A stretch of 14,867 nt of DNA from a virus (lineage: Duplodnaviria; Heunggongvirae; Uroviricota; Caudoviricetes). The translations under genes and the position numbers were made by a program. Numbering within the stretch: the stretch's first letter is position 1; every line of letters starts with the position of its first letter. The stretch is from the IMG/VR virus record IMGVR_UViG_2617270955_000010; one strand, 5' to 3'. Positions 1 to 13,886 of the stretch are shown here, piece by piece. Under the pieces are notes generated by a model. It did not search any database. It saw nothing but the letters and a program-made list of their open reading frames with translations, and was not told the origin of the DNA.

Positions 1-1542
1 ATGCCAACAGTTCCAATTTCTATGAGAAAACTTAAAGAAATTCTTAGGCTTAAATACGGTGTTGGACTCAGCCATCGACAAATTGGTCGTAGTCTTGCAA
101 TCTCCCCTTCCGTTGTATCCAGATATGCTAATCGGGCGGCTCAACTTGGCATAAAGCAGTGGCCCTTACCTACAGGATGGGATGATACAAAACTAAAACA
201 TGCGTTCCTTCAGACCCAGGTTAAGATGAAGAAGCACTCTCTGCCTGACTGGGCTACAGTACACCGGGAACTGCGTAATAAATGCGTGACGCTGCAGCTA
301 CTCTGGGAAGAATACTGTGAGCGTAATCCAGGCGGTTTTTACAGCTATAACCATTACTGCCGGATGTACCGTGAATGGCTCAAAACCACTTCACCATCAA
401 TGCGTCAGGTACATAAAGCTGGCGAAAAACTTTTCGTTGATTACTGTGGACCTACCGTTGGCGTTACCGACCCTGAGACCGGAGAAATAAGAACTGCTCA
501 GGTCATCGTAGCTGTTCTCGGGGCATCAAGTTACACATGGGCAGAGGCCACCTGGTCTCAGCAGCTTGAAGACTGGGTGATGAGTCATGTTCGCTGCTTC
601 CAGTGGTTGGGTGGCGTTCCTGAACTTGTTGTTCCGGACAATCTGAAAAGCGCCACATCCAGGGCATGTAAGTATGATCCTGACGTTAACCCTACCTACC
701 AGCAGATGCTTGAGCATTATAATGTCGCAGTTTTGCCTGCGCGGCCACGTAAACCGAAAGATAAAGCCAAAGCTGAAGTTGGCGTTCAGGTTGTTGAACG
801 CTGGATCATGGCCCGAATCAGGCATGAGATCTTCTACAGCCTTGCATCGCTTAATCAGCGCATTCGGGAGTTGCTGGAAAGACTGAATAACAAAATAATG
901 CAGAAGTTGGGTTATTCACGTGCAGAACTCTTCATCCAGCTTGATAAACCCGCACTGAAGCCTCTTCCTGAAGCCAGTTACAGTTACACCCTGGTGAAGA
1001 AAGTCAGAGTTCATGCCGATTACCACGTGGAAATCGACAAACATTACTACTCGGTTCCATGTTCGCTGTTAGGCCAGCAACTGGAAGCATGGATCTCCGG
1101 AGAACTGGTAAGACTCTTCAATCAGGGGCAGGAGGTTGCTGTGCACCCGCGCAAGCGTACTTATGGCTACAGTACCCGCAACGAGCACATGCCTGAAGCT
1201 CATCGACAGCATGCCACCTGGACGCCAGAGCGTCTTCTGGAATGGGCGGGGCACATAGGCAGTGAAACTCATAGTTATGTGCTTCATATACTGAACTCTC
1301 GTCCACATCCGGAACAAAGCTATCGCTTCTGCCTTGGACTCCTGAACCTTCATAAAAAATACAGTAAAGCCAGACTTAATGCAGCATGTGCAAGAGCTCT
1401 GAAAACAAAGGTATGGCGTCTGTCAGGTATTAAATCGATCCTGGAAAAAGGTCTGGATAAACAACCTGTTCAGGATCCAAAACCAGATCTGTTATCCACG
1501 ATGGAACACGAAAACGTACGCGGCAGTGAGTATTACCACTGA
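1..1542 (+). CDS. istA: IS21-family transposase IstA (N-terminal HTH plus DDE catalytic domain)
   Basis: 513-aa ORF. The N-terminus MPTVPISMRKLKEILRLKYG...LSHRQIGRSL is typical of IstA helix-turn-helix N-termini. It is followed 11 bp later by an IstB-type ATPase gene. The ATG is at window position 1, so the upstream IR is not visible. Confidence 0.92.
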   Translation: MPTVPISMRKLKEILRLKYGVGLSHRQIGRSLAISPSVVSRYANRAAQLGIKQWPLPTGWDDTKLKHAFLQTQVKMKKHSLPDWATVHRELRNKCVTLQLLWEEYCERNPGGFYSYNHYCRMYREWLKTTSPSMRQVHKAGEKLFVDYCGPTVGVTDPETGEIRTAQVIVAVLGASSYTWAEATWSQQLEDWVMSHVRCFQWLGGVPELVVPDNLKSATSRACKYDPDVNPTYQQMLEHYNVAVLPARPRKPKDKAKAEVGVQVVERWIMARIRHEIFYSLASLNQRIRELLERLNNKIMQKLGYSRAELFIQLDKPALKPLPEASYSYTLVKKVRVHADYHVEIDKHYYSVPCSLLGQQLEAWISGELVRLFNQGQEVAVHPRKRTYGYSTRNEHMPEAHRQHATWTPERLLEWAGHIGSETHSYVLHILNSRPHPEQSYRFCLGLLNLHKKYSKARLNAACARALKTKVWRLSGIKSILEKGLDKQPVQDPKPDLLSTMEHENVRGSEYYH

Positions 1543-1553
1543 TACGGGATCCA

Positions 1554-2303
1554 ATGATGAATCATCTTTACGAACAACTGACCGCACTTAAACTCACCGG
1601 CTTCCGTGATGCGCTTAAAAAGCAACTTGCTCAACCGGGCACATACCAGGAGCTGGGCTTCGAAGAACGCCTGTCATTACTGACAGCAGAAGAACTAACC
1701 TGCCGTGAAAACAGGAAGGCAGAGCGTCTGATCAAACATGCACGGTTCAGACTTAATGCTGAGTTATCAAAGCTGGATTATCGTAACAATAGAGGGCTGG
1801 ACAGGGCCCTCATCCGTTCACTCAGTCAGGGAAACTGGTTAACCCTGAAACAAAATATTTTACTGACCGGGGCCACCGGCAGCGGTAAAACGTTCCTGGC
1901 ATGTGCACTTGGTCATAATGCCTGCCGACAGGGATACAAGGTCTACTATTATCGCCTTAAAGCGCTGATGGAACAGTGCTATCAGGGGCATGCTGATGGA
2001 AGATACAGCAAACTTTTGACCAGGCTGAATAATAGCGATCTGCTGCTTCTGGATGACTGGGGGCTGGAACCTCTCTCATCAGAACAGCGTAGCGACCTGC
2101 TGGAAATAGTGGATCTGATGTACCAACGAGGCTCAATCATCGTAGTGAGCCAGTTGCCGGTGGAAAACTGGTACAAAATGATCGGAGACTCCACACATGC
2201 GGATGCCATCCTAGATCGACTGGTTCATGGCAGTATCAAGATCGAACTTAAAGGAGAATCAATGCGGAAAATACAATCTCCGTTGACCGAAGGAGATCAG
2301 TGA
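1554..2303 (+). CDS. istB: IS21-family helper ATPase IstB (AAA+/DnaC-like)
   Basis: 249 aa. Walker A motif GATGSGKTF and Walker B motif LLLLDDWG. Position immediately downstream of istA. Confidence 0.93.
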   Translation: MMNHLYEQLTALKLTGFRDALKKQLAQPGTYQELGFEERLSLLTAEELTCRENRKAERLIKHARFRLNAELSKLDYRNNRGLDRALIRSLSQGNWLTLKQNILLTGATGSGKTFLACALGHNACRQGYKVYYYRLKALMEQCYQGHADGRYSKLLTRLNNSDLLLLDDWGLEPLSSEQRSDLLEIVDLMYQRGSIIVVSQLPVENWYKMIGDSTHADAILDRLVHGSIKIELKGESMRKIQSPLTEGDQ

Positions 2304-2373
2304 AGGTAATTTAAAAACGGTTCTGTGAAAGTGACACGAACCGATCTCCATCGATGTTACTCACCGATCTCCT

Positions 2374-2463
2374 TCACGGTAATACGCAACCGGCGTCGAT
2401 GCCGTTCAGTTCGGCAACACGGGACAGGTAGGCATTAAATTTAAAGCGGGTTTCCTGGCGCAT
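2374..2463 (-). pseudogene. N: 5' fragment of the P2 major capsid gene N, cut by the IS21-family insertion
   Basis: The reverse strand from the ATG at 2461..2463 reads MRQETRFKFNAYLSRVAELNGIDAG, matching my recollection of the P2 gpN N-terminus. It then diverges (CVLP-stop) as it enters the IS end. It lies 58 bp downstream of the O stop, as in P2. Confidence 0.8.
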
Positions 2464-2521
2464 AGTTTTTCCTGAAATTAAGGGTTAATCGTGAAGGTTT
2501 TCCCGGACTGACTGACGCCGG

Positions 2522-3376
2522 TCAGCAGTTCGTCATCAGGGCGTCACCGCCACCACCGGTGGCCTTGCTGCGGCGCTGCTGGGTCAGACTTTCGGTGTGG
2601 TCGAGACTGTTTTTCAGGCGGGTGAATGCCTGGCTGGTTTCATCCGCCCTGTCAGTCACCTCCTGCTTAAGTGCGGAAAAGGCGGTTTCCATCTCAGAGA
2701 GGCGCTGCTCAGTGGCGCTCAGTTTTTCCTGCACATGTTCAGCAACAGCGGTCACCGCTTCATGCACGTCATTCAGACGGGCGTCATCGCTGGCCTGTTT
2801 GCGGCCAAAAATGGATTTCACCTTTTCGGTCAGGGCGGTGAACACGGTTTCAGGCAGGTCTTCAAATTCCAGCTCAACAGGCGTTGCCACTGAAATCAGG
2901 TTTTCAGGGCTTAATTTGAAGCGGTTCAGGGGGTTGTGTTTTGCCGTGCGGCAGAATTCCAGGTATTCCGTGCCGAGGCTTGCCGGGTCATCGGTGACGG
3001 CCAGACCCACCAGATAACATTTGCCGGTGTTGGCAAAGTTCGGCTGAATTTCCATTGAGGTGTAGACCTTCTGCGCGGCCTTGTTCATCGCGATAAGGTC
3101 ATCGGTCGGGGTGATTTTCGCAAACAGCGCCCATTTGCCTTTCAGCGCCGAATCATCGTCAATCTTTTCGGCCTTCAGTTCGGCCACATCGCCATAACGC
3201 TTAAAAATACCGTCAGGCAGGATGCCGCGCAGATGTTCCAGGTTAATGCGGCAACCATAGACTCGCGGGTCAAAGGTTTCGGCCATTTCCTGAATATCCT
3301 GCGCACTGATGACACGCCCGTCACAGGTGTCACCCTCAACGCCGATACGAAAGAATTTTGAGACTTTTTTTGCCAT
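2522..3376 (-). CDS. O: P2-type capsid scaffolding protein gpO
   Basis: 284 aa from the internal ATG at 3374..3376 (MAKKVSKFFRIGVEGDTCDGR...), giving the length I recall for P2 gpO. The longer ORF start at 3442 adds 22 residues not expected. Gene order matches P2 (O divergent from P). Confidence 0.93.
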   Translation of the reverse strand: MAKKVSKFFRIGVEGDTCDGRVISAQDIQEMAETFDPRVYGCRINLEHLRGILPDGIFKRYGDVAELKAEKIDDDSALKGKWALFAKITPTDDLIAMNKAAQKVYTSMEIQPNFANTGKCYLVGLAVTDDPASLGTEYLEFCRTAKHNPLNRFKLSPENLISVATPVELEFEDLPETVFTALTEKVKSIFGRKQASDDARLNDVHEAVTAVAEHVQEKLSATEQRLSEMETAFSALKQEVTDRADETSQAFTRLKNSLDHTESLTQQRRSKATGGGGDALMTNC

Positions 3377-3549
3377 TGTCAGGAGTCCTGAATAGTGATT
3401 AGAGGAGTCACATGTCGGCATCAGTTTCCCGACGATGCGCATCCTCCGCCATCAGTCCCGGATGGCTTATCACTGACACAACAGCACCTTAGCGAATCGC
3501 GGGGCGCGACTCAGTAGCCTTGCCGTGTATTCATCACGGCGAGGTATTC
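3377..3549. promoter_or_regulatory. Divergent late promoter region between O (leftward) and P (rightward); expected site of Ogr-type activator-dependent late promoters
   Basis: Position only: the intergenic region between the divergently transcribed morphogenesis operons of a P2-like phage. I could not confidently pick out the TGT-N12-ACA activator dyads by eye. Confidence 0.45.
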
Positions 3550-5322
3550 ATGACCATCACCACAGACACCACTCTTTTACACGACCCGCGTCGTCAGGCG
3601 GCGCTGCTGTACTGGCAGGGGTTTTCCGTGCCGCAGATTGCCGCCATGTTGCAGATGAAACGTCCGACGGTGCAGAGCTGGAAACAGCGCGACGGCTGGG
3701 ACAGCGTTGCCCCCATCAGCCGTGTCGAAATGAGTCTGGAAGCGCGACTGACCCAGCTCATCATCAAACCGCAGAAAACCGGCGGTGACTTCAAGGAAAT
3801 TGACCTGCTGGGACGCCAGATTGAACGACTGGCACGGGTAAACCGCTACAGTCAGACCGGCAACGAGGCAGACCTTAATCCGAACGTCGCTAACCGCAAC
3901 AAAGGCGGGCGTCGCAAACCGAAAAAGAATTTTTTCAGTGACGAGGCCATCGAAAAGCTGGAGCAGATTTTCTTTGAGCAGTCTTTCGACTATCAGTTGC
4001 ACTGGTATCGCGCCGGGCTTGAGCACCGCATCCGCGATATCCTGAAATCCCGCCAGATTGGCGCGACGTTTTATTTTTCCCGCGAGGCGCTGCTGCGCGC
4101 CCTGAAAACCGGTCATAACCAGATTTTTCTGTCGGCCAGTAAAACGCAGGCGTATGTGTTCCGCGAATACATCATCGCCTTTGCCCGGCTGGTTGACGTT
4201 GACCTGACCGGTGACCCGATTGTCCTGGGCAATAACGGCGCAAAACTGATTTTTCTCGGCACCAACTCCAACACCGCACAGAGCCATAACGGCGACCTGT
4301 ACGTCGACGAGATTTTCTGGATCCCGAATTTTCAGGTACTGCGTAAGGTGGCATCAGGTATGGCCTCACAGAGTCACCTGCGCTCGACCTATTTCTCCAC
4401 CCCGTCCACGCTGGCGCACGACGCCTACCCGTTCTGGTCGGGTGAACTGTTCAACCGGGGACGCGCCAGCGCCGCCGAACGCGTGGAAATCGACGTCAGT
4501 CATAACGCCCTTGCCGGAGGTCTTCTCTGTGCGGACGGCCAGTGGCGGCAGATTGTCACCATTGAGGACGCCCTGAAAGGCGGCTGCACGCTGTTCGACA
4601 TTGAGCAGCTCAAACGTGAAAACAGCGCCGACGATTTTAAAAACCTGTTCATGTGTGAATTTGTTGACGACAAGGCGTCGGTGTTCCCGTTCGAGGAGCT
4701 GCAACGCTGCATGGTCGACACGCTGGAAGAATGGGAAGACTATGCGCCGTTTGCCGCCAATCCGTTCGGCTCCCGCCCGGTATGGATTGGTTACGACCCG
4801 TCACACCGTGGCGACAGCGCCGGATGCGTGGTACTGGCACCGCCGGTGGTGGCCGGTGGCAAATTCAGAATACTTGAGCGTCACCAGTGGAAAGGCATGG
4901 ACTTTGCCACCCAGGCGGAATCCATCCGCAAACTCACCGAAAAATATAACGTCGAATACATCGGTATTGATGCCACCGGCCTCGGTGTCGGCGTGTTCCA
5001 GCTCGTGCGCTCGTTCTATCCCGCCGCGCGCGATATCCGCTACACACCGGAAATGAAAACCGCAATGGTGCTCAAGGCAAAAGACGTTATCCGTCGTGGC
5101 TGTCTGGAATATGACGTCAGCGCCACCGACATCACCAGCTCGTTTATGGCTATCCGCAAGACCATGACCAGCAGCGGACGCAGCGCCACCTATGAGGCCA
5201 GCCGCAGCGAGGAAGCCAGCCACGCCGACCTCGCCTGGGCGACCATGCACGCCCTGTTAAATGAGCCACTCACCGCCGGTATCAGCACCCCGCTGACATC
5301 CACCATTCTGGAGTTTTACTGA
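3550..5322 (+). CDS. P: P2-type terminase large (ATPase) subunit gpP
   Basis: 590 aa from the ATG at 3550 (MTITTDTTLLHDPRRQAALLYWQGFSVPQIAAM...), preceded by GAGG. The longer ORF from 3520 adds 10 residues. The stop overlaps the Q start (ATGA). Confidence 0.93.
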   Translation: MTITTDTTLLHDPRRQAALLYWQGFSVPQIAAMLQMKRPTVQSWKQRDGWDSVAPISRVEMSLEARLTQLIIKPQKTGGDFKEIDLLGRQIERLARVNRYSQTGNEADLNPNVANRNKGGRRKPKKNFFSDEAIEKLEQIFFEQSFDYQLHWYRAGLEHRIRDILKSRQIGATFYFSREALLRALKTGHNQIFLSASKTQAYVFREYIIAFARLVDVDLTGDPIVLGNNGAKLIFLGTNSNTAQSHNGDLYVDEIFWIPNFQVLRKVASGMASQSHLRSTYFSTPSTLAHDAYPFWSGELFNRGRASAAERVEIDVSHNALAGGLLCADGQWRQIVTIEDALKGGCTLFDIEQLKRENSADDFKNLFMCEFVDDKASVFPFEELQRCMVDTLEEWEDYAPFAANPFGSRPVWIGYDPSHRGDSAGCVVLAPPVVAGGKFRILERHQWKGMDFATQAESIRKLTEKYNVEYIGIDATGLGVGVFQLVRSFYPAARDIRYTPEMKTAMVLKAKDVIRRGCLEYDVSATDITSSFMAIRKTMTSSGRSATYEASRSEEASHADLAWATMHALLNEPLTAGISTPLTSTILEFY

Positions 5323-6356
5323 TGAGCAAGAAAAAAGGGAAAACACCGCAACCTGCGGCAAAAAAAATGACTGCCAGCGCCCCGAAAATGGAGGCATTCA
5401 CCTTTGGTGAGCCGGTGCCGGTGCTCGACCGCCGTGACATTCTGGATTACGTCGAATGCATCAGTAACGGCAGATGGTATGAGCCGCCGGTCAGCTTTAC
5501 CGGTCTGGCAAAAAGCCTGCGTGCTGCCGTGCATCACAGCTCACCGATTTACGTCAAACGTAATATTCTGGCTTCAACGTTTATCCCGCATCCATGGCTT
5601 TCCCAGCAGGATTTCAGCCGCTTTGTGCTGGATTTTCTGGTATTTGGTAATGCATTTCTGGAAAAGCGTTACAGCACCACCGGTAAGGTCATCAGACTGG
5701 AAACCTCACCGGCAAAATATACCCGCCGTGGTGTGGAAGAGGATATTTACTGGTGGGTGCCGTCCTTCAACGAGCCGACAGCCTTCGCGCCCGGCTCCGT
5801 GTTTCACCTGCTGGAGCCGGATATTAATCAGGAGCTGTACGGCCTGCCGGAATATCTCAGCGCCCTTAACTCTGCCTGGCTGAATGAGTCGGCCACGCTG
5901 TTCCGCCGCAAGTATTACGAAAATGGCGCCCATGCCGGATACATCATGTACGTCACCGATGCCGTGCAGGATCGCAACGATATCGAAATGCTTCGCGAAA
6001 ACATGGTTAAGTCGAAAGGCCGCAACAACTTTAAAAATCTGTTTCTCTATGCGCCACAGGGGAAAGCTGACGGCATTAAAATTATCCCCCTCAGTGAAGT
6101 AGCGACGAAGGACGATTTTTTTAATATCAAAAAAGCCAGCGCCACTGACCTGCTGGACGCGCACCGCATCCCCTTTCAGTTGATGGGGGGCAAGCCGGAG
6201 AACGTCGGGTCGCTGGGTGATATTGAGAAAGTGGCAAAGGTCTTTGTCCGCAATGAGCTTATCCCGTTACAGGACAGGATCCGCGAGATAAACGGCTGGC
6301 TCGGTCAGGAGGTCATCCGCTTTAAAAACTACTCACTGGACACCGACAACGGCTGA
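5322..6356 (+). CDS. Q: P2-type portal protein gpQ
   Basis: 344 aa, MSKKKGKTPQPAAKK...; translationally coupled to P; followed by an intrinsic terminator and the cos site, as in P2. Confidence 0.93.
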   Translation: MSKKKGKTPQPAAKKMTASAPKMEAFTFGEPVPVLDRRDILDYVECISNGRWYEPPVSFTGLAKSLRAAVHHSSPIYVKRNILASTFIPHPWLSQQDFSRFVLDFLVFGNAFLEKRYSTTGKVIRLETSPAKYTRRGVEEDIYWWVPSFNEPTAFAPGSVFHLLEPDINQELYGLPEYLSALNSAWLNESATLFRRKYYENGAHAGYIMYVTDAVQDRNDIEMLRENMVKSKGRNNFKNLFLYAPQGKADGIKIIPLSEVATKDDFFNIKKASATDLLDAHRIPFQLMGGKPENVGSLGDIEKVAKVFVRNELIPLQDRIREINGWLGQEVIRFKNYSLDTDNG

Positions 6357-6359
6357 ACA

Positions 6360-6381
6360 TCGCCGCCTGCGGGCGGCTTTT
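6360..6381 (+). terminator. Rho-independent terminator of the P-Q operon
   Basis: GC hairpin GCCGCC-tgcg-GGCGGC (6360..6375) followed by TTTTTT (6376..6381), 4 nt after the Q stop codon. Confidence 0.7.
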
Positions 6382-6525
6382 TTACACCCCGTCATCACGC
6401 CCTCACACGCTCACCACCGCACAAAACCCCCCGCAGACACACCAACGCCCCGGCGCACAATCCAAACGCCGTCACGACGCGCTGAGACGCTGAAAAAATA
6501 AAATCAGCACCACCGCCAGCGCGCA

Positions 6526-6544
6526 GTGCTTTCCCCGCCTCGCC
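6526..6544. other. P2-type cos site (19-nt cohesive end)
   Basis: GTGCTTTCCCCGCCTCGCC is the reverse complement of the P2 cohesive end GGCGAGGCGGGGAAAGCAC as I recall it. It lies next to Q, where cos sits in P2. Confidence 0.7.
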
Positions 6545-6661
6545 CGCCCGCTTCGTGGGACGATTTTAATGCAGTTGCCCGCATTAGCTGAATCCGCGCC
6601 AGAACAGACATTATGGATATGTCAATACGAACTTATTGACGTGCAAAATCATGCAATCAAG

Positions 6662-6694
6662 CGCAAAAAAAAACCGCCTTCAAAGAGGCGGTTT
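6662..6694 (-). terminator. Rho-independent terminator of the cargo operon
   Basis: On the minus strand: a 9-bp stem AAACCGCCT / AGGCGGTTT (6671..6679 and 6686..6694) with a 6-nt loop, followed by a run of about 9 U. It lies 16 nt downstream of the kinase-HIRAN stop codon. Confidence 0.75.
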
Positions 6695-6709
6695 ATGTTA
6701 TCCCATTGA

Positions 6710-8353
6710 TTAAGATCTACATTCAACTAAAAGGTACACTAATGGACGTTCTGGCGTCCCATTCTTCTTTGCAACAAAAGCAGATATTTTGTGTTTTGCT
6801 ATTTTTTGCTTGAGTTTTTTACATAACACTTTGTTTATATAACCAAGTTTCCCGCTCTCATGAACAACAGCTATAGCATGTGGATCAACCGGGTTATCCT
6901 CTTCAGGAACAAGCTTGACCAAATCACCGACCATTACTTTCGACAAATCAAGCCCTTCCTGATAACGAGTTCCTGCCACTTCAAAAAGAAGCTCACCTTC
7001 ACTATTAAGAATTTCTGGATCTGGCACCAAACAAAAACCATCGCCAGGTGATTTTGCTCCTGTATATCCTAACAGCGCAAAATCAGAGCCTTCAAATGGA
7101 TGGGGGAGCAAATGTTGAGCCAGATACTCAGCAAAGTCTTTTCTTTTCCGTGGTGGTAAACGCCGAACAAACGGGTCAAGCACGTTGTTCGTATGTTCTT
7201 CACTTTTCAGACTAAATGCGGGATGTCCTGCAAACCCTTTCTCTTGGGCTTTAGCATAATCTTCTGACTGAAAATGGTATGTGAAGACGTAGTTATCCCC
7301 TTGCTGACGATCAATCTGACCAACAACATAACGAGTACCGCCTGTGGGTGGCTGCCATGTAAGAAGCAACCGAGTAGGCTCCATTATTCTGTTTATAGTA
7401 CGCATATTTAGAATCAGTGATAACCTTAGGTATCTACGCCTCAATAAACGAATCGTCCAATCCGCTCGTTCCCTAGTGAACGGCACATCGGAGCTAATTT
7501 CGCAAAGTGAATCTATCTTGTCGACCAGTTCCTGAAAATCAAATTCAAGTCTCCGGGCCAAGTACGCTTTTGACTGCTCATCAAGAGCCAAATCCTGTAT
7601 AGAAGAAATATGACCTAATCGTTCATGCGTGTCTGCCCGATTCTTCCGCAAATGATGACAACCACGCTGTATGTATTCATCTACATTTTGATGGTTCCAT
7701 CCTCTGATCCTCTCTACATACCTTTCATGCCCCAAACTAGTACCATTATCGAAATATGGTGCGAGATATCCCTTCACTTTAGGTGGCGTTATGCCTGGTG
7801 CAGATTCAGGTACAAAAACAAAACCCCAATTCTCTTGGTGTCTATCACTATTACCGATGAGCGCATCAAAAAGCAGCATATCGTAAAGCCATTGGATCCA
7901 GTCTGGAGAGATCAGGCCGCGGATACTAAAAGCCCTACAAATTAAGCGTAGATCAACAAGGTTATGGTGTCTTCCGGAAGAGTCATCAAAATCCGATATC
8001 AACACATGAAAAAAATCAGACGCATGAACAAATAACTGGCTACTTTGATCGTAAAACCACTCAAGCAAAGCTCCATATTCGTATTCACCGTTCTCCATCA
8101 TTCTTCGCGCTGGCAATGCTTTAGGAACAGGAACGCCCATAACATCTCCAACTATATAAGCAACGGTTTCCATCCAGTACTGATCGGGATAAGCATCTCT
8201 TGAGAGTTTAAAAAGATAAGGCCATTCCGGTTTTATCCCCTCAGGAGCATCATTCGGTGACCAAAGCATTTTTTTATCCCTCGCTCCTCGAGGAAAAATG
8301 CCATGCTCATCATCTTTACGCCAACTAGTTACATCTATTAAATTGATATCCAT
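6710..8353 (-). CDS. HipA-family (HipA_C-like) Ser/Thr kinase core fused to a C-terminal HIRAN domain; candidate defence effector/sensor
   Basis: 547 aa. Kinase motifs: P-loop-like GARDKK (aa 23-28), catalytic loop LIGNSDRHQENWGF (D170/H172/N175; HipA DxHxxN motif), and metal-binding APYFDNGTS (D202; compare HipA AP-YD--S). C-terminal ~93 aa (aa ~455-547), ...AGTRYQEGLDLSKVMVGDLVKLVPEEDNPVDPHAIAVVHESGKLGYINKVL..., fits the HIRAN pattern (G-x-x-Y, L-x-x-E-x-x-N-P-x-D-x-x-A-I, G-Y-I). The start is 9 nt after the exonuclease stop (operon). Domain calls are from motif recognition only. Confidence 0.8.
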   Translation of the reverse strand: MDINLIDVTSWRKDDEHGIFPRGARDKKMLWSPNDAPEGIKPEWPYLFKLSRDAYPDQYWMETVAYIVGDVMGVPVPKALPARRMMENGEYEYGALLEWFYDQSSQLFVHASDFFHVLISDFDDSSGRHHNLVDLRLICRAFSIRGLISPDWIQWLYDMLLFDALIGNSDRHQENWGFVFVPESAPGITPPKVKGYLAPYFDNGTSLGHERYVERIRGWNHQNVDEYIQRGCHHLRKNRADTHERLGHISSIQDLALDEQSKAYLARRLEFDFQELVDKIDSLCEISSDVPFTRERADWTIRLLRRRYLRLSLILNMRTINRIMEPTRLLLTWQPPTGGTRYVVGQIDRQQGDNYVFTYHFQSEDYAKAQEKGFAGHPAFSLKSEEHTNNVLDPFVRRLPPRKRKDFAEYLAQHLLPHPFEGSDFALLGYTGAKSPGDGFCLVPDPEILNSEGELLFEVAGTRYQEGLDLSKVMVGDLVKLVPEEDNPVDPHAIAVVHESGKLGYINKVLCKKLKQKIAKHKISAFVAKKNGTPERPLVYLLVECRS

Positions 8354-8362
8354 ATCTTACGG

Positions 8363-8914
8363 TTACCCAGCTAATGCACGGAAAGCAGCACTAACATAAG
8401 CTACCTGAAACTTTGCATCTCGAAGCGCATGATGCGCATCAGTAACATTAATGGAAAAATTTGCCCTTACATCAATATTCTTAAGGCTTTTAGCTAGTTC
8501 AACGATGGTACGCACGTCTCGATCATTTCGAAAACGCCATGGGATATTTTGCGCATGTTTACGGTAAACCGCTGCCAATATAGCGTTATCAAAGCTTGCC
8601 CCATTCCCCCAAACTTGTACGTCATCGTTACTACGACTTCGTACAAATAGAGAAAATTCTTGTAAGGCTTCATGTAAGTCAACAGCAGACGGGTCATTAA
8701 AAACCGCCCTTGCAGAATCGCTTTGTATCATCCACCACTGTAAAGTTTTTGGGTCTACAAAACTATTTTCCAATGCAGATGATAGGGTTATAACTCTATA
8801 AAACTCATCCCCACACTTGCCAGTCAGAGGCTCAAAGAACACAGCGCCGATTGAAATCAAAGGAGCATCCATTGACACACCTAATGTTTCTATATCGAGC
8901 ATTAAATTATTCAT
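8363..8914 (-). CDS. DexA-like DEDDh 3'-5' exonuclease (DnaQ-fold)
   Basis: 183 aa. Exo I motif LDIETLG (D7, E9); Exo II motif WGNGASFDNAIL (D109); Exo III motif DAHHALRDA (H161-x4-D166). The overall pattern resembles phage T4 DexA (IDFETMG, GMSFDFPIL, HDSIHD). Strong SD GGAGG 5 nt upstream of the ATG. Confidence 0.85.
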   Translation of the reverse strand: MNNLMLDIETLGVSMDAPLISIGAVFFEPLTGKCGDEFYRVITLSSALENSFVDPKTLQWWMIQSDSARAVFNDPSAVDLHEALQEFSLFVRSRSNDDVQVWGNGASFDNAILAAVYRKHAQNIPWRFRNDRDVRTIVELAKSLKNIDVRANFSINVTDAHHALRDAKFQVAYVSAAFRALAG

Positions 8915-9054
8915 TTAACCTCCACCCCAGACATAGCTCAGGGAAACGTAACCTATTGAAATAACGAATCAAGTATTTGTCACATTCTATACTAAAACAT
9001 TCGAATTCCAAAACTTCAGCTTTTGCAACCCCTTACAAGTCAATTGATCCATAA

Positions 9055-9074
9055 TACTGTATACATACACAGTA
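9055..9074. promoter_or_regulatory. Putative LexA (SOS) operator upstream of the cargo operon
   Basis: TACTGTATACATACACAGTA has the CTGT-N8-ACAG pattern with an AT-rich centre and matches the E. coli LexA consensus TACTGTATATATATACAGTA at 18 of 20 positions. It lies 18 bp downstream of the A stop and about 140 bp upstream of the exonuclease ATG on the same transcriptional side. Confidence 0.5.
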
Positions 9075-9092
9075 CTACATTTGAAAAACAAA

Positions 9093-11369
9093 TCAAGGGA
9101 AATCATTAAAACCCGGCCAATCACAACAAGGCGGATAAACAAATTTTTTCATGTCATAAATAACTTCTGCCCCACGAGCCAGCGCCTCAAGCTCCCATCT
9201 CTGAGGCCTGATACCGTTCTGAGCAAGGTCAACGCGGATACGGGTGATTTGCAATCGTTCAGACCGGGTCAGTCTGGCCGATGGTGCAATTTCATGCGGT
9301 TTTAACGGGCTTCCGTTTCTTTGCCGACGATTTGGCGTTCTCAGCCCGTGTTTTAATGCGCCCCTGAGCGCCTTCACGACCTCCGGGTCATTCCATTCGA
9401 TAACACCATCATCAACCAGATTAAGCACTGCTGCGGCGTGCTCAGAAGGTGTGGGAACCGGTAACGAAGTATCACCACCGGTGAGCTTTCCACAGTTATT
9501 GACAGGACTCCGAGGCGCGGCGATGCCGCTTTTTAAAGTCAAAGGCTCAACGACCGGAACTTTCGGCACAATGCGCCAGTCCGTCGTTCTGGTGATATGA
9601 ATATGACGCGCGCCGAGATGCGGCGCGTAAATGCCGACCACTCTCTCGACCTCTTCCTCGTACTCGTTAACGTCATCCGACGGGCTACGGGCGACCCTGA
9701 CAGTCTGACAATCGCGCGGGACATTTGCCCCACCCTGCGCGCTGATATACAGCGCAAAATCGCCACTGTCTGCGGCGGCGCGTGCAGCCTCCACGCGTTC
9801 GTCAAATTCATCAGCAATGCTGACGCCGCGAGGCAATTTACGTAGCTCACGGTAAGCTCCCATTGTCGGCAGGCCAACCGTTTTAAATTGCGGGATGCGC
9901 CACGTTGACGCCCATGCGGTAACAGCCGCGGCAGTATCTTTCAGCGGTCTGCCGGTATCGTTATCGAGCTGACCATCCAGTGCATAGCCGTCGATATTTT
10001 TTGAAATGTATTTCGCGATATATCCCGCAGCACCGCCCCGGTTAAGGTGTTTTGCCTGAAAACGGTTTCGCGCGGCTCCTCTTTCGTCGCCATCCTCTTT
10101 GAGCGCATAGCGACGCATGATTTCGATAATCTGGTTACGCTGGCGTGGATTACAAAAAAGCATCATATGCCAGTGCGGCGTTCCGTCGTGGTGTGGCTCG
10201 ACGACTCGCAAACCGTAGACCTGTAAATCATTATCCTTGAATGCCGTGCGCATCAGGCTCCAGATACGGCAGAGATAACGCTGCGCATCCTTTGGATTAA
10301 ATGCCTCATCATTCCAGCCGTGATTAAGCTGGACGGTTTTATTTTCGCCTTTTCCAACCTGACGTGTCGGGTGATACTTTGACGGCGCGGTAAGCGTGAT
10401 AAACATCCCCACATCACCCTCTGAGGCGGCGTAACGCTCAATACCGGCAATGGTGTTCATCAGCTCCATCCGGCGAATTTCAGGATTAGAAATACTGCCC
10501 ATCACCTTACTGATAAGGTCGATGCGCTCGCCGGTTTCCCTGTTTTCAAGGTCACACGATTTAAGAAATTCCAGATTTGCCTGGCGGCGCGCACGCACAT
10601 CACGAATGGCATGTTTACTGGCATAAGGTGAACGGTCTTTATTGACCTCCCCGACAGCAATCAGTAACGCCTCATGCCAGCGCATACGCTGGCCTTTAAG
10701 CTGACTAATCCACCACTCATCGTTAAACAGGCGGGCAATGGCAGAATATGCCTGCCTCGTGGTCATCTGCCCTTTACGGTATTTTCTCCAGTAAAGCGGG
10801 GAAATATTGAAAGCACGTGCAGCGCCAGCAACATGACCATACAGGTGAGCCTGCGCCTCATCCGTAAACAGCGATTCTTTTTCGCCATGCGCATCCACCC
10901 AGGCATCGCAGAGTTCCCCATACATCATGAAAAGCTGCGATGAGATTCGGGCGGCAAACTTTTTCAGCTCCTTGTCATTCATCCCCGGCAGGCGCGCATA
11001 CTGGTCGCGCTCTGCCAGAAACAGCAACGACGCGTCAGTGTTCATTTCATGGCGCTGATTCACACGCTCAATGCGCGGCCATAAACGACGCTGAAAAGTG
11101 GATGTGAGGAAATAAAACCCGTGCACCGGGCTTTTATTGCGCCGGATGTAGTCATAGCGTGAAGTAAACAGCGAGCGCAAAAAGTAAGGCAGGCGGTTAA
11201 TCATGGATAAAACACCTTGCACCTGACGCATCTCGTCACGTGTAAGGGGTCTTTCGCGCCCGACAGCCTCGCGTGGCGCGTTCCACGCATAAGCACCGGT
11301 AAACGTCTTACCGGTGCCTGCGGCAAATGCTGACGGAGGGACAAAACGCCCGGAGGCTTTAACGGCCAT
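9093..11369 (-). CDS. A: P2-type replication initiation protein gpA (rolling-circle endonuclease)
   Basis: 758 aa from MAVKASGRFVPPSAFAAGTGK..., the N-terminus I recall for P2 gpA. The ORF track extends 14 codons further to 11411, which is a possible alternative start. HUH-like motif TPHWHMMLF and paired catalytic tyrosines GYIAKYISK (Y-x3-Y). Confidence 0.93.
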   Translation of the reverse strand: MAVKASGRFVPPSAFAAGTGKTFTGAYAWNAPREAVGRERPLTRDEMRQVQGVLSMINRLPYFLRSLFTSRYDYIRRNKSPVHGFYFLTSTFQRRLWPRIERVNQRHEMNTDASLLFLAERDQYARLPGMNDKELKKFAARISSQLFMMYGELCDAWVDAHGEKESLFTDEAQAHLYGHVAGAARAFNISPLYWRKYRKGQMTTRQAYSAIARLFNDEWWISQLKGQRMRWHEALLIAVGEVNKDRSPYASKHAIRDVRARRQANLEFLKSCDLENRETGERIDLISKVMGSISNPEIRRMELMNTIAGIERYAASEGDVGMFITLTAPSKYHPTRQVGKGENKTVQLNHGWNDEAFNPKDAQRYLCRIWSLMRTAFKDNDLQVYGLRVVEPHHDGTPHWHMMLFCNPRQRNQIIEIMRRYALKEDGDERGAARNRFQAKHLNRGGAAGYIAKYISKNIDGYALDGQLDNDTGRPLKDTAAAVTAWASTWRIPQFKTVGLPTMGAYRELRKLPRGVSIADEFDERVEAARAAADSGDFALYISAQGGANVPRDCQTVRVARSPSDDVNEYEEEVERVVGIYAPHLGARHIHITRTTDWRIVPKVPVVEPLTLKSGIAAPRSPVNNCGKLTGGDTSLPVPTPSEHAAAVLNLVDDGVIEWNDPEVVKALRGALKHGLRTPNRRQRNGSPLKPHEIAPSARLTRSERLQITRIRVDLAQNGIRPQRWELEALARGAEVIYDMKKFVYPPCCDWPGFNDFP

Positions 11370-11634
11370 ATGAGCCAAAAGCCTCTGAACAACGCTTGCT
11401 GAGTTGCTCAACCTGCGCGTTTAAATCAGCAAAAGACTTTGCGCTTCCGGTCAGAATATCGTGATGCATCAGGCCGGAAACGAGCTGGCTTAATTTCGGG
11501 TAATAACCAACCACCGCCAGCCATTCCTGACCGGCGTTTTTACCGCTTTCAGCTCTCTTTTTCTCGTGGAGAATAAACTGAAAGCTGTCACTGGTAACGA
11601 CATAACGTTCGCCAATTTCAATACGAATACTCAT
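11359..11634 (-). CDS. P2 orf83-like small early protein
   Basis: 91 aa, the same size and position as P2 orf83 immediately upstream of A; overlaps the A start by 11 nt. Confidence 0.75.
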   Translation of the reverse strand: MSIRIEIGERYVVTSDSFQFILHEKKRAESGKNAGQEWLAVVGYYPKLSQLVSGLMHHDILTGSAKSFADLNAQVEQLSKRCSEAFGSYGR

Positions 11635-11855
11635 GCCGTTCTCCGGTAATGTTTGTTTTTTGCTTCAAAGACTGACTGACAGGAAACACATCGCGTGGCT
11701 GACGGATAAGCAGCACGACGGGCAGCAGGTATTGGCGCGTCACACTCTTCGCAAACCAGCGCAGAAGCACCGCAATGTTTTACCCTTGCCGCGTTAATCT
11801 GGCGCTCCAGTAATTCAGCCTGTTGTTCCTGAATAAAATCTACGTTGTCCGGCAT
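11631..11855 (-). CDS. P2 orf82-like TraR/DksA-family C4 zinc-finger protein
   Basis: 74 aa with CEEC...(18 aa)...CVSC cysteine pairs; the position corresponds to P2 orf82; 4-nt overlap with neighbours. Confidence 0.8.
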   Translation of the reverse strand: MPDNVDFIQEQQAELLERQINAARVKHCGASALVCEECDAPIPAARRAAYPSATRCVSCQSVFEAKNKHYRRTA

Positions 11856-12160
11856 TACCAGCTCCTTTTGTCGTTCAGCTTCTTAAATTCATCAGCGCAA
11901 TAACTGGCGAGTTCTGTCGTTAATTTTGTCAGTTCATCCACTGAGGAAATTTGCTTGTGGAATACAGCGCGTTTAACAAGTAAATTGACCACATCAGACA
12001 GGAGGTTTAATTCACTCTGATAAATCGCGATAACAGATTCAGTTATTTCGCGCTTCTCTTTATCAATACCAAGTTGAATAAGAGACAAATCACCATTTTT
12101 CATAACGGCGATTTTTAAGGCGTTATTCAGTAATACAACTGAATGAGAACAGGACATCAA
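11855..12160 (-). CDS. P2 orf81-like early protein
   Basis: 101 aa, matching the size and position of P2 orf81; start/stop overlaps with flanking genes. Confidence 0.75.
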
Positions 12161-12381
12161 AGCACCTCCCCGCGAGACAATCCGATATTGTGAAATTTTT
12201 CCGACTCCTGACTGAGCAGCTCGACTATCTCCACGCGGGATAACTCCGCCTTTGTGATATGGCGAATCATGGCGTCAAGATGAGAAGAAAAGCGTGTCGC
12301 TGCGTCGGCCTGTGCTTCGGCTCTGGCCTGTTGCAGCAGTAATGCGTATTTACCGCACTTGTTTTCAGAAACTGTATGCAT
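12157..12381 (-). CDS. P2 orf80-like early protein
   Basis: 74 aa, matching the size and position of P2 orf80 downstream of B. Confidence 0.75.
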
Positions 12382-12444
12382 GACTTTCTCCAGGCAAAAA
12401 GAAGCCCCGCACGATTAAGTGCGTTAAAAACTCTGGTTAATTAT

Positions 12445-12945
12445 TTAATGCAGATATTGCTCTGGTTTTACCGACGTCAGAATTGTCGGTGCATACTCAA
12501 ACAGGCTGAATAATTCACGTAATGCACGGAATAAAGCATCACGCCAGTAACATGACTCTTCATTAATTCGCCAGTATGGCTGGTTGAATTCTTTTTCAGT
12601 CAATCCGGCATGCATAAATAAAGTACGGCGCTGACTGACAGTTAAAAAGCTAATATATGCATACTCACTTGCACCGACCTGACGGCGTTTTGAGAATGCC
12701 CCACGCAGTTCATCAATTGCACAAACCAGCCGTTCACGTTCGATGTCGTTCATTTCTTCAAAACGCATCGTTGCGTGACGTTGTTTTAACTGCGCATGAA
12801 AGCAAACTGTTAGCCGTTCGCGCTCCATCATCTGATTGTAATAATCACATGTCTCCTGCCAGCGAGGGACGGCCAGATGCTTACCAATTATCCGGCGCAT
12901 AGCTGCTGGCTGTTTTTCAACGAGATTGAGCGTCATCACTGTCAT
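12445..12945 (-). CDS. B: P2-type replication protein gpB (helicase loader)
   Basis: 166 aa, the length I recall for P2 gpB; position between orf78 and orf80 in the early operon. Confidence 0.88.
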   Translation of the reverse strand: MTVMTLNLVEKQPAAMRRIIGKHLAVPRWQETCDYYNQMMERERLTVCFHAQLKQRHATMRFEEMNDIERERLVCAIDELRGAFSKRRQVGASEYAYISFLTVSQRRTLFMHAGLTEKEFNQPYWRINEESCYWRDALFRALRELFSLFEYAPTILTSVKPEQYLH

Positions 12946-13112
12946 TTCCAGACCCTCCGGCTTTTCAGAAAGGTCAGAGCCTTTTTTAACGGACTCTGTT
13001 TTTTGGTGCGGATAATGATTCCCTTGCGTCCCTTCCCGTGGGTGATGGTGAAGTCAATCGCCCTGGGGCTTTCGTTACGCAATAACTGAGCAATACAACG
13101 CGGCTCATTCAT
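12942..13112 (-). CDS. P2 orf78-like small early protein
   Basis: 56 aa from the internal start MNEPRCIAQLL..., placed 2 nt after the cox stop. The longer ORF from 13139 would overlap cox by 25 nt. Stop overlaps the B start. Confidence 0.65.
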   Translation of the reverse strand: MNEPRCIAQLLRNESPRAIDFTITHGKGRKGIIIRTKKQSPLKKALTFLKSRRVWK

Positions 13113-13114
13113 AA

Positions 13115-13387
13115 TCACAACCCCATCCACAAAAGCCATGCATCACGCTGTTCAACCGGTCGGTTATAAAACGCCTCACGTACAGCGCGATTAAACTCAG
13201 GAATGAAAACCCATTTTTCACCGGCACGAGCCTTCGGTTTGCAAGGATCACGCAATTCAATAATTGGTAATTTATTTGCCTTCACCATTTCACTGACAGC
13301 TGTCTTTGGCTTCCCTAATAAATCAGCAAATTTATCCACATGAACCGCATCAAGCGGATACTGAATCACATAATTTTCAGCGTCCAT
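13115..13387 (-). CDS. cox: Cox-like excisionase / early-promoter repressor
   Basis: 90 aa from the second ATG (MDAENYVIQYPLDAVHVDKFADLLGKPKTAVSEMVKANKLPIIEL...), preceded by GAGGG. First gene of the early operon, divergent from C. Resembles P2 Cox in size and pattern (...LPVI...AGE.WV..P.....WL.W.GL). Confidence 0.8.
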   Translation of the reverse strand: MDAENYVIQYPLDAVHVDKFADLLGKPKTAVSEMVKANKLPIIELRDPCKPKARAGEKWVFIPEFNRAVREAFYNRPVEQRDAWLLWMGL

Positions 13388-13523
13388 ATATGGTACCCTC
13401 ATAGGATCCAGCCCTTTCTAAACCACTCAAAACCGTTTAGACGCTGGTTTATTCTCAAATCAATGGAACCTATATAGGTTCCAGTTTTGAGGGAATTTAG
13501 TCCCTATATAGGCACCATGTCAA
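13388..13523. promoter_or_regulatory. Lysogeny/lysis switch region (Pe/Pc promoters and operators) between cox and C
   Basis: 136-bp intergenic region between the divergent cox and C genes, containing two copies of the palindromic core CCTATATAGG with TATATA -10-like hexamers. Confidence 0.6.
13465..13482. repeat. Perfect 18-bp palindrome GGAACCTATATAGGTTCC (candidate operator), with a second copy of the 10-bp core at 13503..13512
   Basis: Read directly in the sequence; the core CCTATATAGG is self-complementary and occurs twice, 34 bp apart, just upstream of the C start. Confidence 0.7.
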
Positions 13524-13817
13524 ATGAAATTAAGCGAAAAGATTAAGGCCTTGCGTGAGGCTGAAGGGCTAAGCCAATCAAAATTCTGTGAAATCATAGA
13601 GTTACCGCTAAGCACACTTAAAAAATATGAAGGAGGAAACTTTGAACCCGGTGGCACAGCTTTGCTAAAAATCACTATGCATCCCACATTCCAAAAATAT
13701 GCTCTATGGCTTATGACAGATAAAACCGCGCCGGACGCAGGACAAATCGCACCGGCTCTCGCGCACATTGGGCCAGAGTCAACAGAGTCCAACCACTCCG
13801 CGAAAAGGATTGGCTAA
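13524..13817 (+). CDS. C: P2 C-type immunity repressor
   Basis: 97 aa. The C-terminal half ...FQKYALWLMTDKTAPDAGQIAPALAHIGPE... closely resembles P2 C (...FTKYTLWFMTNQIAPESGQIAPALAHFG...). Position immediately upstream of int. Confidence 0.85.
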   Translation: MKLSEKIKALREAEGLSQSKFCEIIELPLSTLKKYEGGNFEPGGTALLKITMHPTFQKYALWLMTDKTAPDAGQIAPALAHIGPESTESNHSAKRIG

Positions 13818-13886
13818 CTCTATATAAAGATTACATTTTCACCATTTGCTACCAAGATGGTGAATACAGCGCCGGAGGGCTTTCTT

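What the first reader, a model, noticed from the sequence alone, without database searches (positions are those of the whole stretch)
7004..7396. Unassigned ~130-aa region between the kinase core and HIRAN
Residues ~320-450 (…LLLTWQPPTGGTRYVVGQIDRQQGDNYVFTYHFQSEDYAKAQEKGF…PPRKRKDFAEYLAQHLL…) match no motif I recognise. The segment is too long for a simple linker and contains a basic patch (RRLPPRKRK). It could be a second nucleic-acid-binding or regulatory module, or a degenerate duplicated HIRAN-like beta-barrel.
Basis: inference. Interest (0 to 1): 0.4.

Follow-up and report, generated by a model that had tools for sequence, protein, structure and literature searches.

The report
HipS-like domain of a HipL kinase
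The unassigned 130-residue stretch is a well-folded, highly conserved copy of the small HipS / HipA N-terminal domain, already described in 2021 for the "HipL" kinase family, so the finding is real but ordinary.

Summary
Window 7004-7396 encodes residues 320-450 of a 547-aa protein on the minus strand (6710..8353). The segment is not a linker, not kinase C-lobe and not a second HIRAN. It is a HipS-like domain, the homologue of HipA N-subdomain 1.

- **Sequence:** it matches Pfam Couple_hipA at 29.4 bits, above the 22.5-bit cut-off.
- **Conservation:** it is the most conserved part of the protein.
- **Origin:** in most relatives the kinase (about 310 aa, HipI) and a HipS-like+HIRAN protein (about 233 aa, HipN) are separate, overlapping genes. 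Here they are fused, and the old HipN start aligns with Met317.

The kinase / HipS-like / HIRAN architecture was published as the HipL family (Gerdes et al. 2021) and corresponds to a fused form of PADLOC candidate PDC-M03.

The likely role is inferred, not shown: a cis-acting, antitoxin-like regulator that sits on the kinase next to the Gly-rich loop and couples DNA-end sensing by HIRAN to kinase activation.

The gene lies in the variable cargo site of a P2-like prophage, directly after a DEDDh exonuclease gene. Novelty: already known. Interest is low.

The parts
6710..8353 (-). Complete 547-aa ORF: HipL-type three-domain kinase (kinase core, HipS-like domain, HIRAN).
   Evidence: ORF listing. 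Pfam HipA_C, Couple_hipA and HIRAN. PADLOC PDC-M03A on the N-terminal half and PDC-M03B on residues 325-545. Full-length AlphaFold model with pLDDT 88.8 and pTM 0.89. RefSeq annotates it as WP_023253881.1 'HIRAN domain-containing protein'.
7406..8353 (-). HipA-type Ser/Thr kinase core, residues 1-316. It has no N-subdomain 1 of its own.
   Evidence: Foldseek: CtkA at E 2.7e-10 (TM 0.75 normalised to the target), then HipA and HipT. Invariant columns G23, R25, K27 (putative Gly-rich loop), D170, H172, N175 (catalytic loop) and D202, N203, G204. Stand-alone kinases of about 310 aa align to this part only.
7403..7405 (-). Met317 codon: the position that aligns with the start codon of stand-alone HipN proteins, i.e. 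the fusion junction.
   Evidence: In split loci the kinase ORF ends, and a 229-241 aa ORF starts, 4-20 nt upstream of that stop. Its N-terminus (M..I.H.VEP.RL.LTWQP) aligns with MRTINRIMEPTRLLLTWQP. No Shine-Dalgarno-like sequence lies upstream of this Met in the fused genes.
7004..7396 (-). The finding as given, residues 320-450. It equals the HipS-like domain plus its short leader and the linker to HIRAN.
7019..7378 (-). Folded core of the HipS-like domain (HipA N-subdomain-1 homologue), residues 326-445.
7133..7171 (-). Motif F395-V-R-R-L-P-P-R-K-R-K-D-F407, the 'basic patch'. R398, L399, P400, P401, R404 and D406 are invariant among the 20 full-length HipL proteins.
   Evidence: Invariant columns. 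It aligns to HipA F61-D-N-L-L-P-D67-S-P-I-V-R72.
6719..6997 (-). C-terminal HIRAN domain, residues 453-545.
   Evidence: Pfam HIRAN E 1.4e-10. Profile hits to the HLTF HIRAN domain and to lp_0118. Foldseek matches HLTF HIRAN at TM 0.55-0.60.
8363..8914 (-). Upstream neighbour: Rv2179c-like DEDDh 3'-5' exonuclease, 183 aa. Its stop codon lies 9 nt before the kinase ATG. Probably an accessory partner in this subclade.
   Evidence: Pfam PF16473 E 6.8e-57. Motifs DIE, NGASFD and H-x4-D are present. The spacing is shown. The gene is a conserved neighbour in L002-L006 and L084-L087.

Best explanation
Residues about 317-450 form a HipS-like domain. This is the homologue of the roughly 100-residue N-subdomain 1 of HipA, and of the free-standing HipS antitoxin of HipBST systems. 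Here it is attached after the kinase core instead of before it. The protein is a single-chain fusion of a HipI-type kinase with a HipN-type (HipS-like + HIRAN) partner, which makes it a member of the published HipL family.

Proposed mechanism:
1. The HipS-like domain docks on the kinase N-lobe beside the Gly-rich (P-) loop, as HipS does on HipT, and acts as a built-in regulator that keeps the kinase off.
2. The HIRAN domain, joined to it by only about 7 residues, recognises free DNA 3' ends of an infecting phage.
3. DNA binding shifts the HipS-like domain and releases the kinase.
4. The kinase phosphorylates an essential host factor (aminoacyl-tRNA synthetases in HipA and HipT) and aborts the infection.

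What is shown here: domain identity, fold, conservation, the fusion junction, intact catalytic motifs and the location in a prophage cargo site. What is inferred: docking site, autoinhibition, DNA-end sensing, kinase target and anti-phage role.

My confidence is about 0.95 for the domain identity and about 0.45 for the cis-inhibitory switch mechanism. The number given is a blend of the two.
For: - **Sequence:** Pfam Couple_hipA scores above its gathering cut-off for the isolated segment (29.4 vs 22.5 bits). It is the only Pfam family hit by any of 29 homologous segments, and 13 of 29 hit it.
- **Register with HipA:** a global alignment to HipA residues 1-113 keeps the landmarks LVTW/LLTW, VGEL/VGQI, HTFKY/YVFTY, FFDNLLPD/FVRRLPPR and FDLL..G..GAVTLIPE/FALL..G..DGFCLVPD.
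- **Independent module:** about 233-aa proteins covering 97-100% of residues 320-547 are common. They are encoded directly after, and overlapping, kinases of about 310 aa. In a search of 1.84 billion representatives, nearly all of the top 150 hits are 220-260 aa with the match at the N-terminus.
- **Selection:** the segment is the most conserved part of the protein.
- **Rigid packing:** full-length pTM of 0.89 suggests the domains pack in a fixed arrangement.
- **Literature:** HipL was described as kinase + HipS-like + HIRAN with a suggested regulatory role (PMC8262856). HipS inhibits HipT by acting on the Gly-rich loop (PMC10627512; PMC9325769).
- **Context:** the gene sits between gpA and the portal gene of a P2-like prophage. 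This site is variable across E. coli: the cargo is present in 61 of 5426 genomes, while the flank is present in about 2150. PADLOC lists both halves as defence candidate PDC-M03.
Against: - No experiment on any HipL or HipI/HipN system was found.
- I could not obtain model coordinates, so the docking site is not verified.
- In HipA the homologous N-subdomain is a constitutive part of the enzyme and is not inhibitory.
- The HipS Trp65 that wedges under the Gly-rich loop seems to have no aromatic counterpart here. The aligned stretch is RLPPRKR. I mapped it through HipA only, because I had no HipS sequence in hand.
- Sequence-only searches of the segment against PDB chains did not recover HipS or HipA. 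hhalign against a single HipA sequence is weak (E 0.045-0.08).
Confidence: 0.6

Rival explanations
1. Constitutive structural piece. The domain simply completes the HipA-like kinase fold in a circularly permuted order, as N-subdomain 1 does in HipA. It is needed for stability or substrate binding, and regulation lies elsewhere, for example in autophosphorylation, HIRAN-driven assembly on DNA, or the neighbouring exonuclease.
For: - HipA carries the homologous domain covalently without being inhibited by it (PMC10627512).
- The segment appears to lack the Trp65-type wedge.
- It is the most conserved part of the protein, as expected for an obligatory structural element.
- The high pTM of 0.89 implies a fixed arrangement.
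Against: - In most relatives the domain is on a separate polypeptide, always together with HIRAN. That fits a dissociable regulator better than a core structural element.
- Free HipS proteins are proven inhibitors of their kinases.
Confidence: 0.3
2. Second nucleic-acid-binding surface. The invariant basic motif RRLPPR.R, together with the adjacent HIRAN domain, forms a composite DNA- or RNA-binding face. This does not exclude the best explanation.
For: - R398 and R404 are invariant and R397 nearly so, across both fused and split relatives.
- The corresponding HipA residues are not basic: D62, N63, D67.
- HIRAN follows after only about 7 residues.
Against: - In HipS the equivalent region faces the kinase active site, not solvent (PMC10627512). 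This mapping is by inference.
- No binding data exist.
Confidence: 0.15
3. Degenerate duplicated HIRAN-like beta-barrel.
For: The segment does begin with three beta-strands.
Against: - No local alignment to the protein's own HIRAN at E <= 100.
- The Pfam HIRAN model hits only residues 453-525.
Confidence: 0.01
4. Plain disordered linker, or an extension of the kinase C-lobe.
For: None beyond its position between two recognised domains.
Against: - pLDDT is 90-96 across the segment.
- It has the highest conservation in the protein.
- It is encoded on a separate gene product in split relatives.
Confidence: 0.01

Closest known systems
HipL kinase family (Gerdes, Baerentsen & Brodersen 2021, mBio; PMC8262856)
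   Same: [quoted passage not shown] The same suggested regulatory role. A Gram-negative subclade is described.
   Different: The family was described as monocistronic. Here, and in the closest relatives, a DEDDh exonuclease gene sits directly upstream. I could not confirm that this exact protein is in their Table S1. The paper had no structural evidence for the HipS-like domain.
HipI kinase + HipN (HipS-like + HIRAN) two-gene modules; PADLOC candidate PDC-M03A/B
   Same: Residues 1-316 match PDC-M03A and residues 325-545 match PDC-M03B. Split relatives reach 53-56% identity and have the same gene order.
   Different: Here the two genes are fused into one ORF at the old HipN start, Met317. The split form is the common one, and the fused form is rare among representatives.
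HipS antitoxin of HipBST (E. coli O127:H6, PDB 7AB3; Legionella pneumophila, PDB 7VKB/8EZR)
   Different: - HipS is a free protein of about 100 aa encoded upstream of its kinase and works with a HipB repressor. Here the domain is fused downstream of the kinase and to HIRAN, and there is no HipB.
- This domain is about 20 residues longer.
- Sequence identity is only 15-19%.
- It has a branch-specific GF.G.PAF motif and a basic RRLPPR.R.DF motif.
- The Trp65 wedge is apparently absent (inferred).
HipA N-subdomain 1 (E. coli K-12 HipA, PDB 5K98/3TPB; Pfam PF13657 Couple_hipA)
   Different: The position relative to the kinase core is reversed, a circular permutation by gene fission and re-fusion. 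In HipA the domain is not known to inhibit, and regulation is by HipB and by Ser150 autophosphorylation.

Membership tests
Pfam PF13657 Couple_hipA / HipS-like domain | Profile score above the curated gathering threshold | tested here: met
   29.4 bits against a 22.5-bit cut-off, E 1.2e-6, profile positions 9-94 of 99. 13 of 29 homologous segments also match, and no other Pfam family is hit.
Pfam PF13657 Couple_hipA / HipS-like domain | Fold of solved HipS / HipA N-subdomain 1 | tested here: met
Pfam PF13657 Couple_hipA / HipS-like domain | Partnered with a HipA-type kinase core that lacks its own N-subdomain 1 | tested here: met
   The kinase core starts at residue 1. Foldseek matches it to CtkA, HipT and the HipA core. 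Pfam HipA_C covers residues 23-206.
HipS antitoxin (functional sense) | Neutralises its kinase; carries the Trp65-type residue that wedges under the Gly-rich loop | tested here: inconclusive
   Neutralisation cannot be tested with these tools. By alignment through HipA, the stretch around the LLP(D/E) motif reads RLPPRKR and has no aromatic residue. I had no HipS sequence or structural alignment to fix the exact column.
HipL kinase family (Gerdes 2021) | Core kinase with conserved HipA motifs (Gly-rich loop, catalytic D.H..N, Mg-binding D) | tested here: met
   Invariant columns G23, R25, K27; D170, H172, N175; D202, N203, G204. phmmer aligns the LIGNSDRHQENWGF stretch to the corresponding catalytic stretches of CtkA and Shewanella HipA.
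HipL kinase family (Gerdes 2021) | Internal HipS-like domain followed by a C-terminal HIRAN domain in one polypeptide | tested here: met
HipL kinase family (Gerdes 2021) | Monocistronic operon | tested here: inconclusive
   An exonuclease gene ends 9 nt upstream on the same strand. It is conserved in the nearest relatives but absent next to a 41%-identical Aeromonas HipL. No transcript data are available.
PADLOC PDC-M03 candidate defence system | Matches to both the A (kinase) and B (HipS-like + HIRAN) profiles | tested here: met
   PDC-M03A at E 3.8e-31 on residues 4-308. PDC-M03B at E 1e-30 on residues 325-525. Here both are on one polypeptide.
PADLOC PDC-M03 candidate defence system | Protects against phage | not testable with these tools
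   No experimental report was found.
HIRAN domain (as a second, degenerate copy) | Sequence or fold similarity to HIRAN | tested here: not met

The most novel reading that the evidence does not exclude
The HipS-like domains of HipL and HipN form a separate branch. They have lost the acidic/aromatic inhibitory loop of HipS and gained an invariant basic motif (RRLPPR.R.DF) and a GF.G.PAF insert.

The most novel reading not excluded is that this domain and HIRAN together form one ligand-gated switch. In this reading the switch reads free DNA 3' ends or very short DNA fragments. The DEDD exonuclease encoded next door then acts as the signal-clearing or threshold-setting partner. That exonuclease is Rv2179c-like here and an NrnC-type deoxydinucleotidase in Gram-positive bacteria.

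If so, the exonuclease plus HipL pair would be a nucleic-acid-fragment-sensing kinase defence system carried in P2 prophage cargo sites.
Probability: 0.12. Interest if true: 0.6.

Novelty: already known. Interest (0 to 1): 0.2.

Why it matters
For the finding itself, the result closes a gap in annotation. RefSeq labels this protein only as 'HIRAN domain-containing protein', and NCBIfam has no model for it. In fact it is a complete HipA-type kinase whose regulatory HipS-like domain sits in a permuted position.

It gives a clear, testable construct design for an uncharacterised prophage-borne candidate defence gene: kinase 1-316 against regulatory half 317-547, with the natural split relatives as controls. 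None of this changes current understanding, because the architecture was published in 2021.

Tried and rejected
- **PDB sequence searches:** phmmer of the segment and of the whole protein, and a profile of 62 HipN/HipL sequences, did not recover HipS or HipA N-domains. Only the CtkA/HipA kinase and HIRAN were found. Sequence alone is too weak, and fold search was needed.
- **hhalign against one HipA sequence:** it gives the right register but poor statistics (E 0.045 local, 0.084 global). I used it only for motif mapping.
- **NCBIfam:** no model.
- **HipS sequence for placing Glu63/Trp65:** a PDB search with the HipA N-terminus lists HipS chains (E 1e-4 to 1e-7), but only the five top alignments, all HipA, are printed. 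The Trp65 mapping therefore stays inferred.
- **Internal translation start at Met317:** no Shine-Dalgarno-like sequence lies upstream in any fused gene. Not supported, not excluded.
- **Exonuclease as an obligatory third component:** rejected as a general rule. It is absent from about 75 of 80 related genome loci and from an Aeromonas HipL.
- **Literature on the P2 site:** papers on P2 hotspots do not mention this cargo. The supplements of Gerdes 2021 held as text did not let me confirm that close homologues are in their table.
- **L010 and L022:** same-frame hits suggested further fusions, but the reading frames are interrupted. Not pursued.

Full report
**1. Observation**

The only long ORF across 7004-7396 runs on the minus strand from 8353 to 6710 and encodes 547 residues. 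Residue 320 begins at 7396 and residue 450 ends at 7004, so the coordinates are exact. Pfam places a HipA-type kinase in the N-terminal part (HipA_C, residues 23-206) and a HIRAN domain at 453-525. Nothing else of note overlaps it on the other strand.

**2. What the segment is**

- **Pfam.** The segment does match a known family. Scanned alone, it hits Pfam PF13657 Couple_hipA ('HipA N-terminal domain') at E 1.2e-6 and 29.4 bits, above the curated cut-off of 22.5, over profile positions 9-94 of 99. Of 29 homologous segments scanned one by one, 13 hit this family and none hits any other.
- **PADLOC.** PADLOC splits the protein cleanly. Residues 4-308 match PDC-M03A and residues 325-545 match PDC-M03B, the two proteins of a candidate defence system.
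- **Foldseek.** It agrees: HipS of Legionella at TM 0.74 (normalised to the target), probability 1.0, followed by HipA chains.
- **Full-length model.** It has pLDDT 88.8 and pTM 0.89, with pLDDT 90-96 across the segment. Its kinase part matches CtkA, HipA and HipT, and its C-terminus matches the HLTF HIRAN domain.
- **Register with HipA.** A global profile alignment with E. coli HipA residues 1-113 is statistically weak on its own (E 0.08). It is collinear at every landmark: LVTW/LLTW, VGEL/VGQI, HTFKY/YVFTY, FFDNLLPD/FVRRLPPR and FDLL..G..GAVTLIPE/FALL..G..DGFCLVPD.

**3. Alternatives rejected**

The segment has no detectable similarity to the protein's own HIRAN domain. No HIRAN structure appears among its listed fold matches. 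It is not disordered. It is the most conserved part of the protein: among 20 full-length homologues reaching down to 40% identity, 24% of its columns are invariant, against 18% for the kinase and 13% for HIRAN. It is not kinase C-lobe either, because the kinase helices end near residue 314 and the module is a separate protein in relatives (section 4).

**4. Relatives and origin**

A search with the whole protein finds about 35 full-length homologues in Enterobacterales, Aeromonas and others. It then finds hundreds of kinases of about 310 aa that cover only the first 55-58%. A search with residues 320-547 finds hundreds of proteins of about 233 aa that cover 97-100% of it.

In 80 genome loci the two parts are nearly always adjacent, kinase first, and in different reading frames. 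In the eight split loci examined at the junction, the kinase stop and the downstream start overlap by 4-20 nt, typically 4-8 nt such as ATGA.

The downstream protein's N-terminus (M..I.H.VEP.RL.LTWQP) aligns with window residues 317-335 (MRTINRIMEPTRLLLTWQP). Met317 therefore marks the old start codon, and the 547-aa protein is a simple in-frame fusion.

A profile of the segment alone, searched against 1.84 billion representative proteins, finds 688 hits. Nearly all of the best 150 are 220-260 aa with the match at the N-terminus, and only a few are fused. The domain thus travels with HIRAN as one unit, and the fused form is the minority.

**5. Mechanism**

What is shown here:
- The kinase keeps G23-A-R-D-K27, D170-R-H-Q-E-N175 and D202-N-G.
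- The HipS-like domain is joined to HIRAN by about 7 residues.
- The high pTM indicates a fixed domain arrangement.

What comes from the literature:
- HipS binds HipT at the site that N-subdomain 1 occupies in HipA.
- HipS inhibits the kinase by holding or remodelling the Gly-rich loop, so that ATP cannot bind (PMC10627512; PMC9325769).
- HIRAN domains bind DNA 3' ends (cited in PMC8262856).

My best inference is that the segment is the kinase-binding half of a built-in regulator and that HIRAN is the sensor half. Phage DNA ends would release the kinase, which would then block translation or another essential process. I put this mechanism at about 0.45.

The main rival, at about 0.3, is that the domain merely completes the kinase fold, as it does in HipA.

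Its arginines R398 and R404 are invariant in both fused and split relatives.

**6. Comparison with what is known**

[quoted passage not shown] They defined HipI/HipN as the split version, and they proposed both the regulatory role of the HipS-like domain and phage DNA-end sensing by HIRAN. The window protein meets every structural criterion of HipL.

The only open criterion is 'monocistronic', because an exonuclease gene ends 9 nt upstream. No experimental study of HipL or HipI/HipN was found.

What this analysis adds:
- structural confirmation of the HipS-like assignment
- the exact fusion junction
- the conservation ranking of the three domains
- the branch-specific motifs
- the genomic setting

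The finding is therefore already known.

**7. Setting**

Window 2389-14867 is 98.4% identical to a P2-like prophage next to cpxP in E. coli Ecol_656. The region carries integrase, cox, gpB, gpA, then the exonuclease and hipL, then portal, terminase and scaffold.

The exonuclease + hipL cargo occurs in 61 of 5426 complete E. coli genomes. The 222 nt next to the portal gene occur in about 2150 of them. This is the behaviour of a variable cargo site. It sits between the replication gene gpA and the portal gene, the variable P2 site where, from my own knowledge of the phage rather than a tool result here, P2 itself carries old and tin. The P2-hotspot literature I checked (PMC9122126) does not mention this kinase/HIRAN cargo.

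**8. Verdict**

Novelty is 'already known', and interest is low at about 0.2.

Noticed in passing
window 8363-8914 (-); also L002 674-1222, L003-L006 about 5430-5990, L084/L085 4443-4985, L086 4448-5017: An Rv2179c-like DEDDh 3'-5' exonuclease gene with intact motifs sits immediately upstream of the kinase. This holds both for fused HipL genes and for the closest split HipI/HipN pairs, inside and outside P2-like prophages. It is absent from about 75 more distant split loci and from an Aeromonas HipL (L083). A 2025 paper (PMC11706625) reports a different DEDD subfamily, NrnC-type deoxydinucleotidases, next to HipA + HIRAN genes in Gram-positive bacteria. The exonuclease / HipI-N association may therefore have arisen twice.
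   Followed up: partly
window 1-2388: An IS21-family element (IstA-like transposase at 1..1542, IstB/DnaC-like helper at 1554..2303) replaces the sequence expected from the intact relative. Homology to prophage L088 stops at window 2389, about 25 codons into the P2 major capsid gene N. This prophage copy is therefore probably defective.
   Followed up: partly
window 6357-6709: In the intergenic stretch between the portal gene and hipL, only the first about 222 nt (portal side) are conserved across about 2150 E. coli genomes and many P2-like phages. This marks one boundary of the variable cargo site. I did not look for cos or promoter/terminator elements.
   Followed up: no
window 7403-7405 (Met317): The Met that aligns with the start of stand-alone HipN proteins is kept in fused HipL proteins (shifted by a few residues in the most distant ones). 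No Shine-Dalgarno-like sequence precedes it, so separate internal translation of a HipN-like product is not supported, though not excluded.
   Followed up: yes
L083 5001-6617: A 41%-identical HipL in an Aeromonas P2/186-like prophage sits at a different cargo position, between the cI-like repressor and the integrase, and has no exonuclease. The fused kinase can therefore travel alone and uses more than one prophage cargo site.
   Followed up: no
L010 about 5989-7626 and L022 about 5989-7635: In these two distant loci the kinase and HipN parts lie in the same frame, but the reading frame is interrupted. They may be pseudogenes, assembly errors or differently organised genes.
   Followed up: no
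window 6710-8353 (-): RefSeq/PGAP names the protein only 'HIRAN domain-containing protein' (WP_023253881.1), and NCBIfam has no matching model. PHROGs lists it as phrog_26212, function unknown. The kinase and HipS-like domains are invisible in standard annotation.
   Followed up: yes
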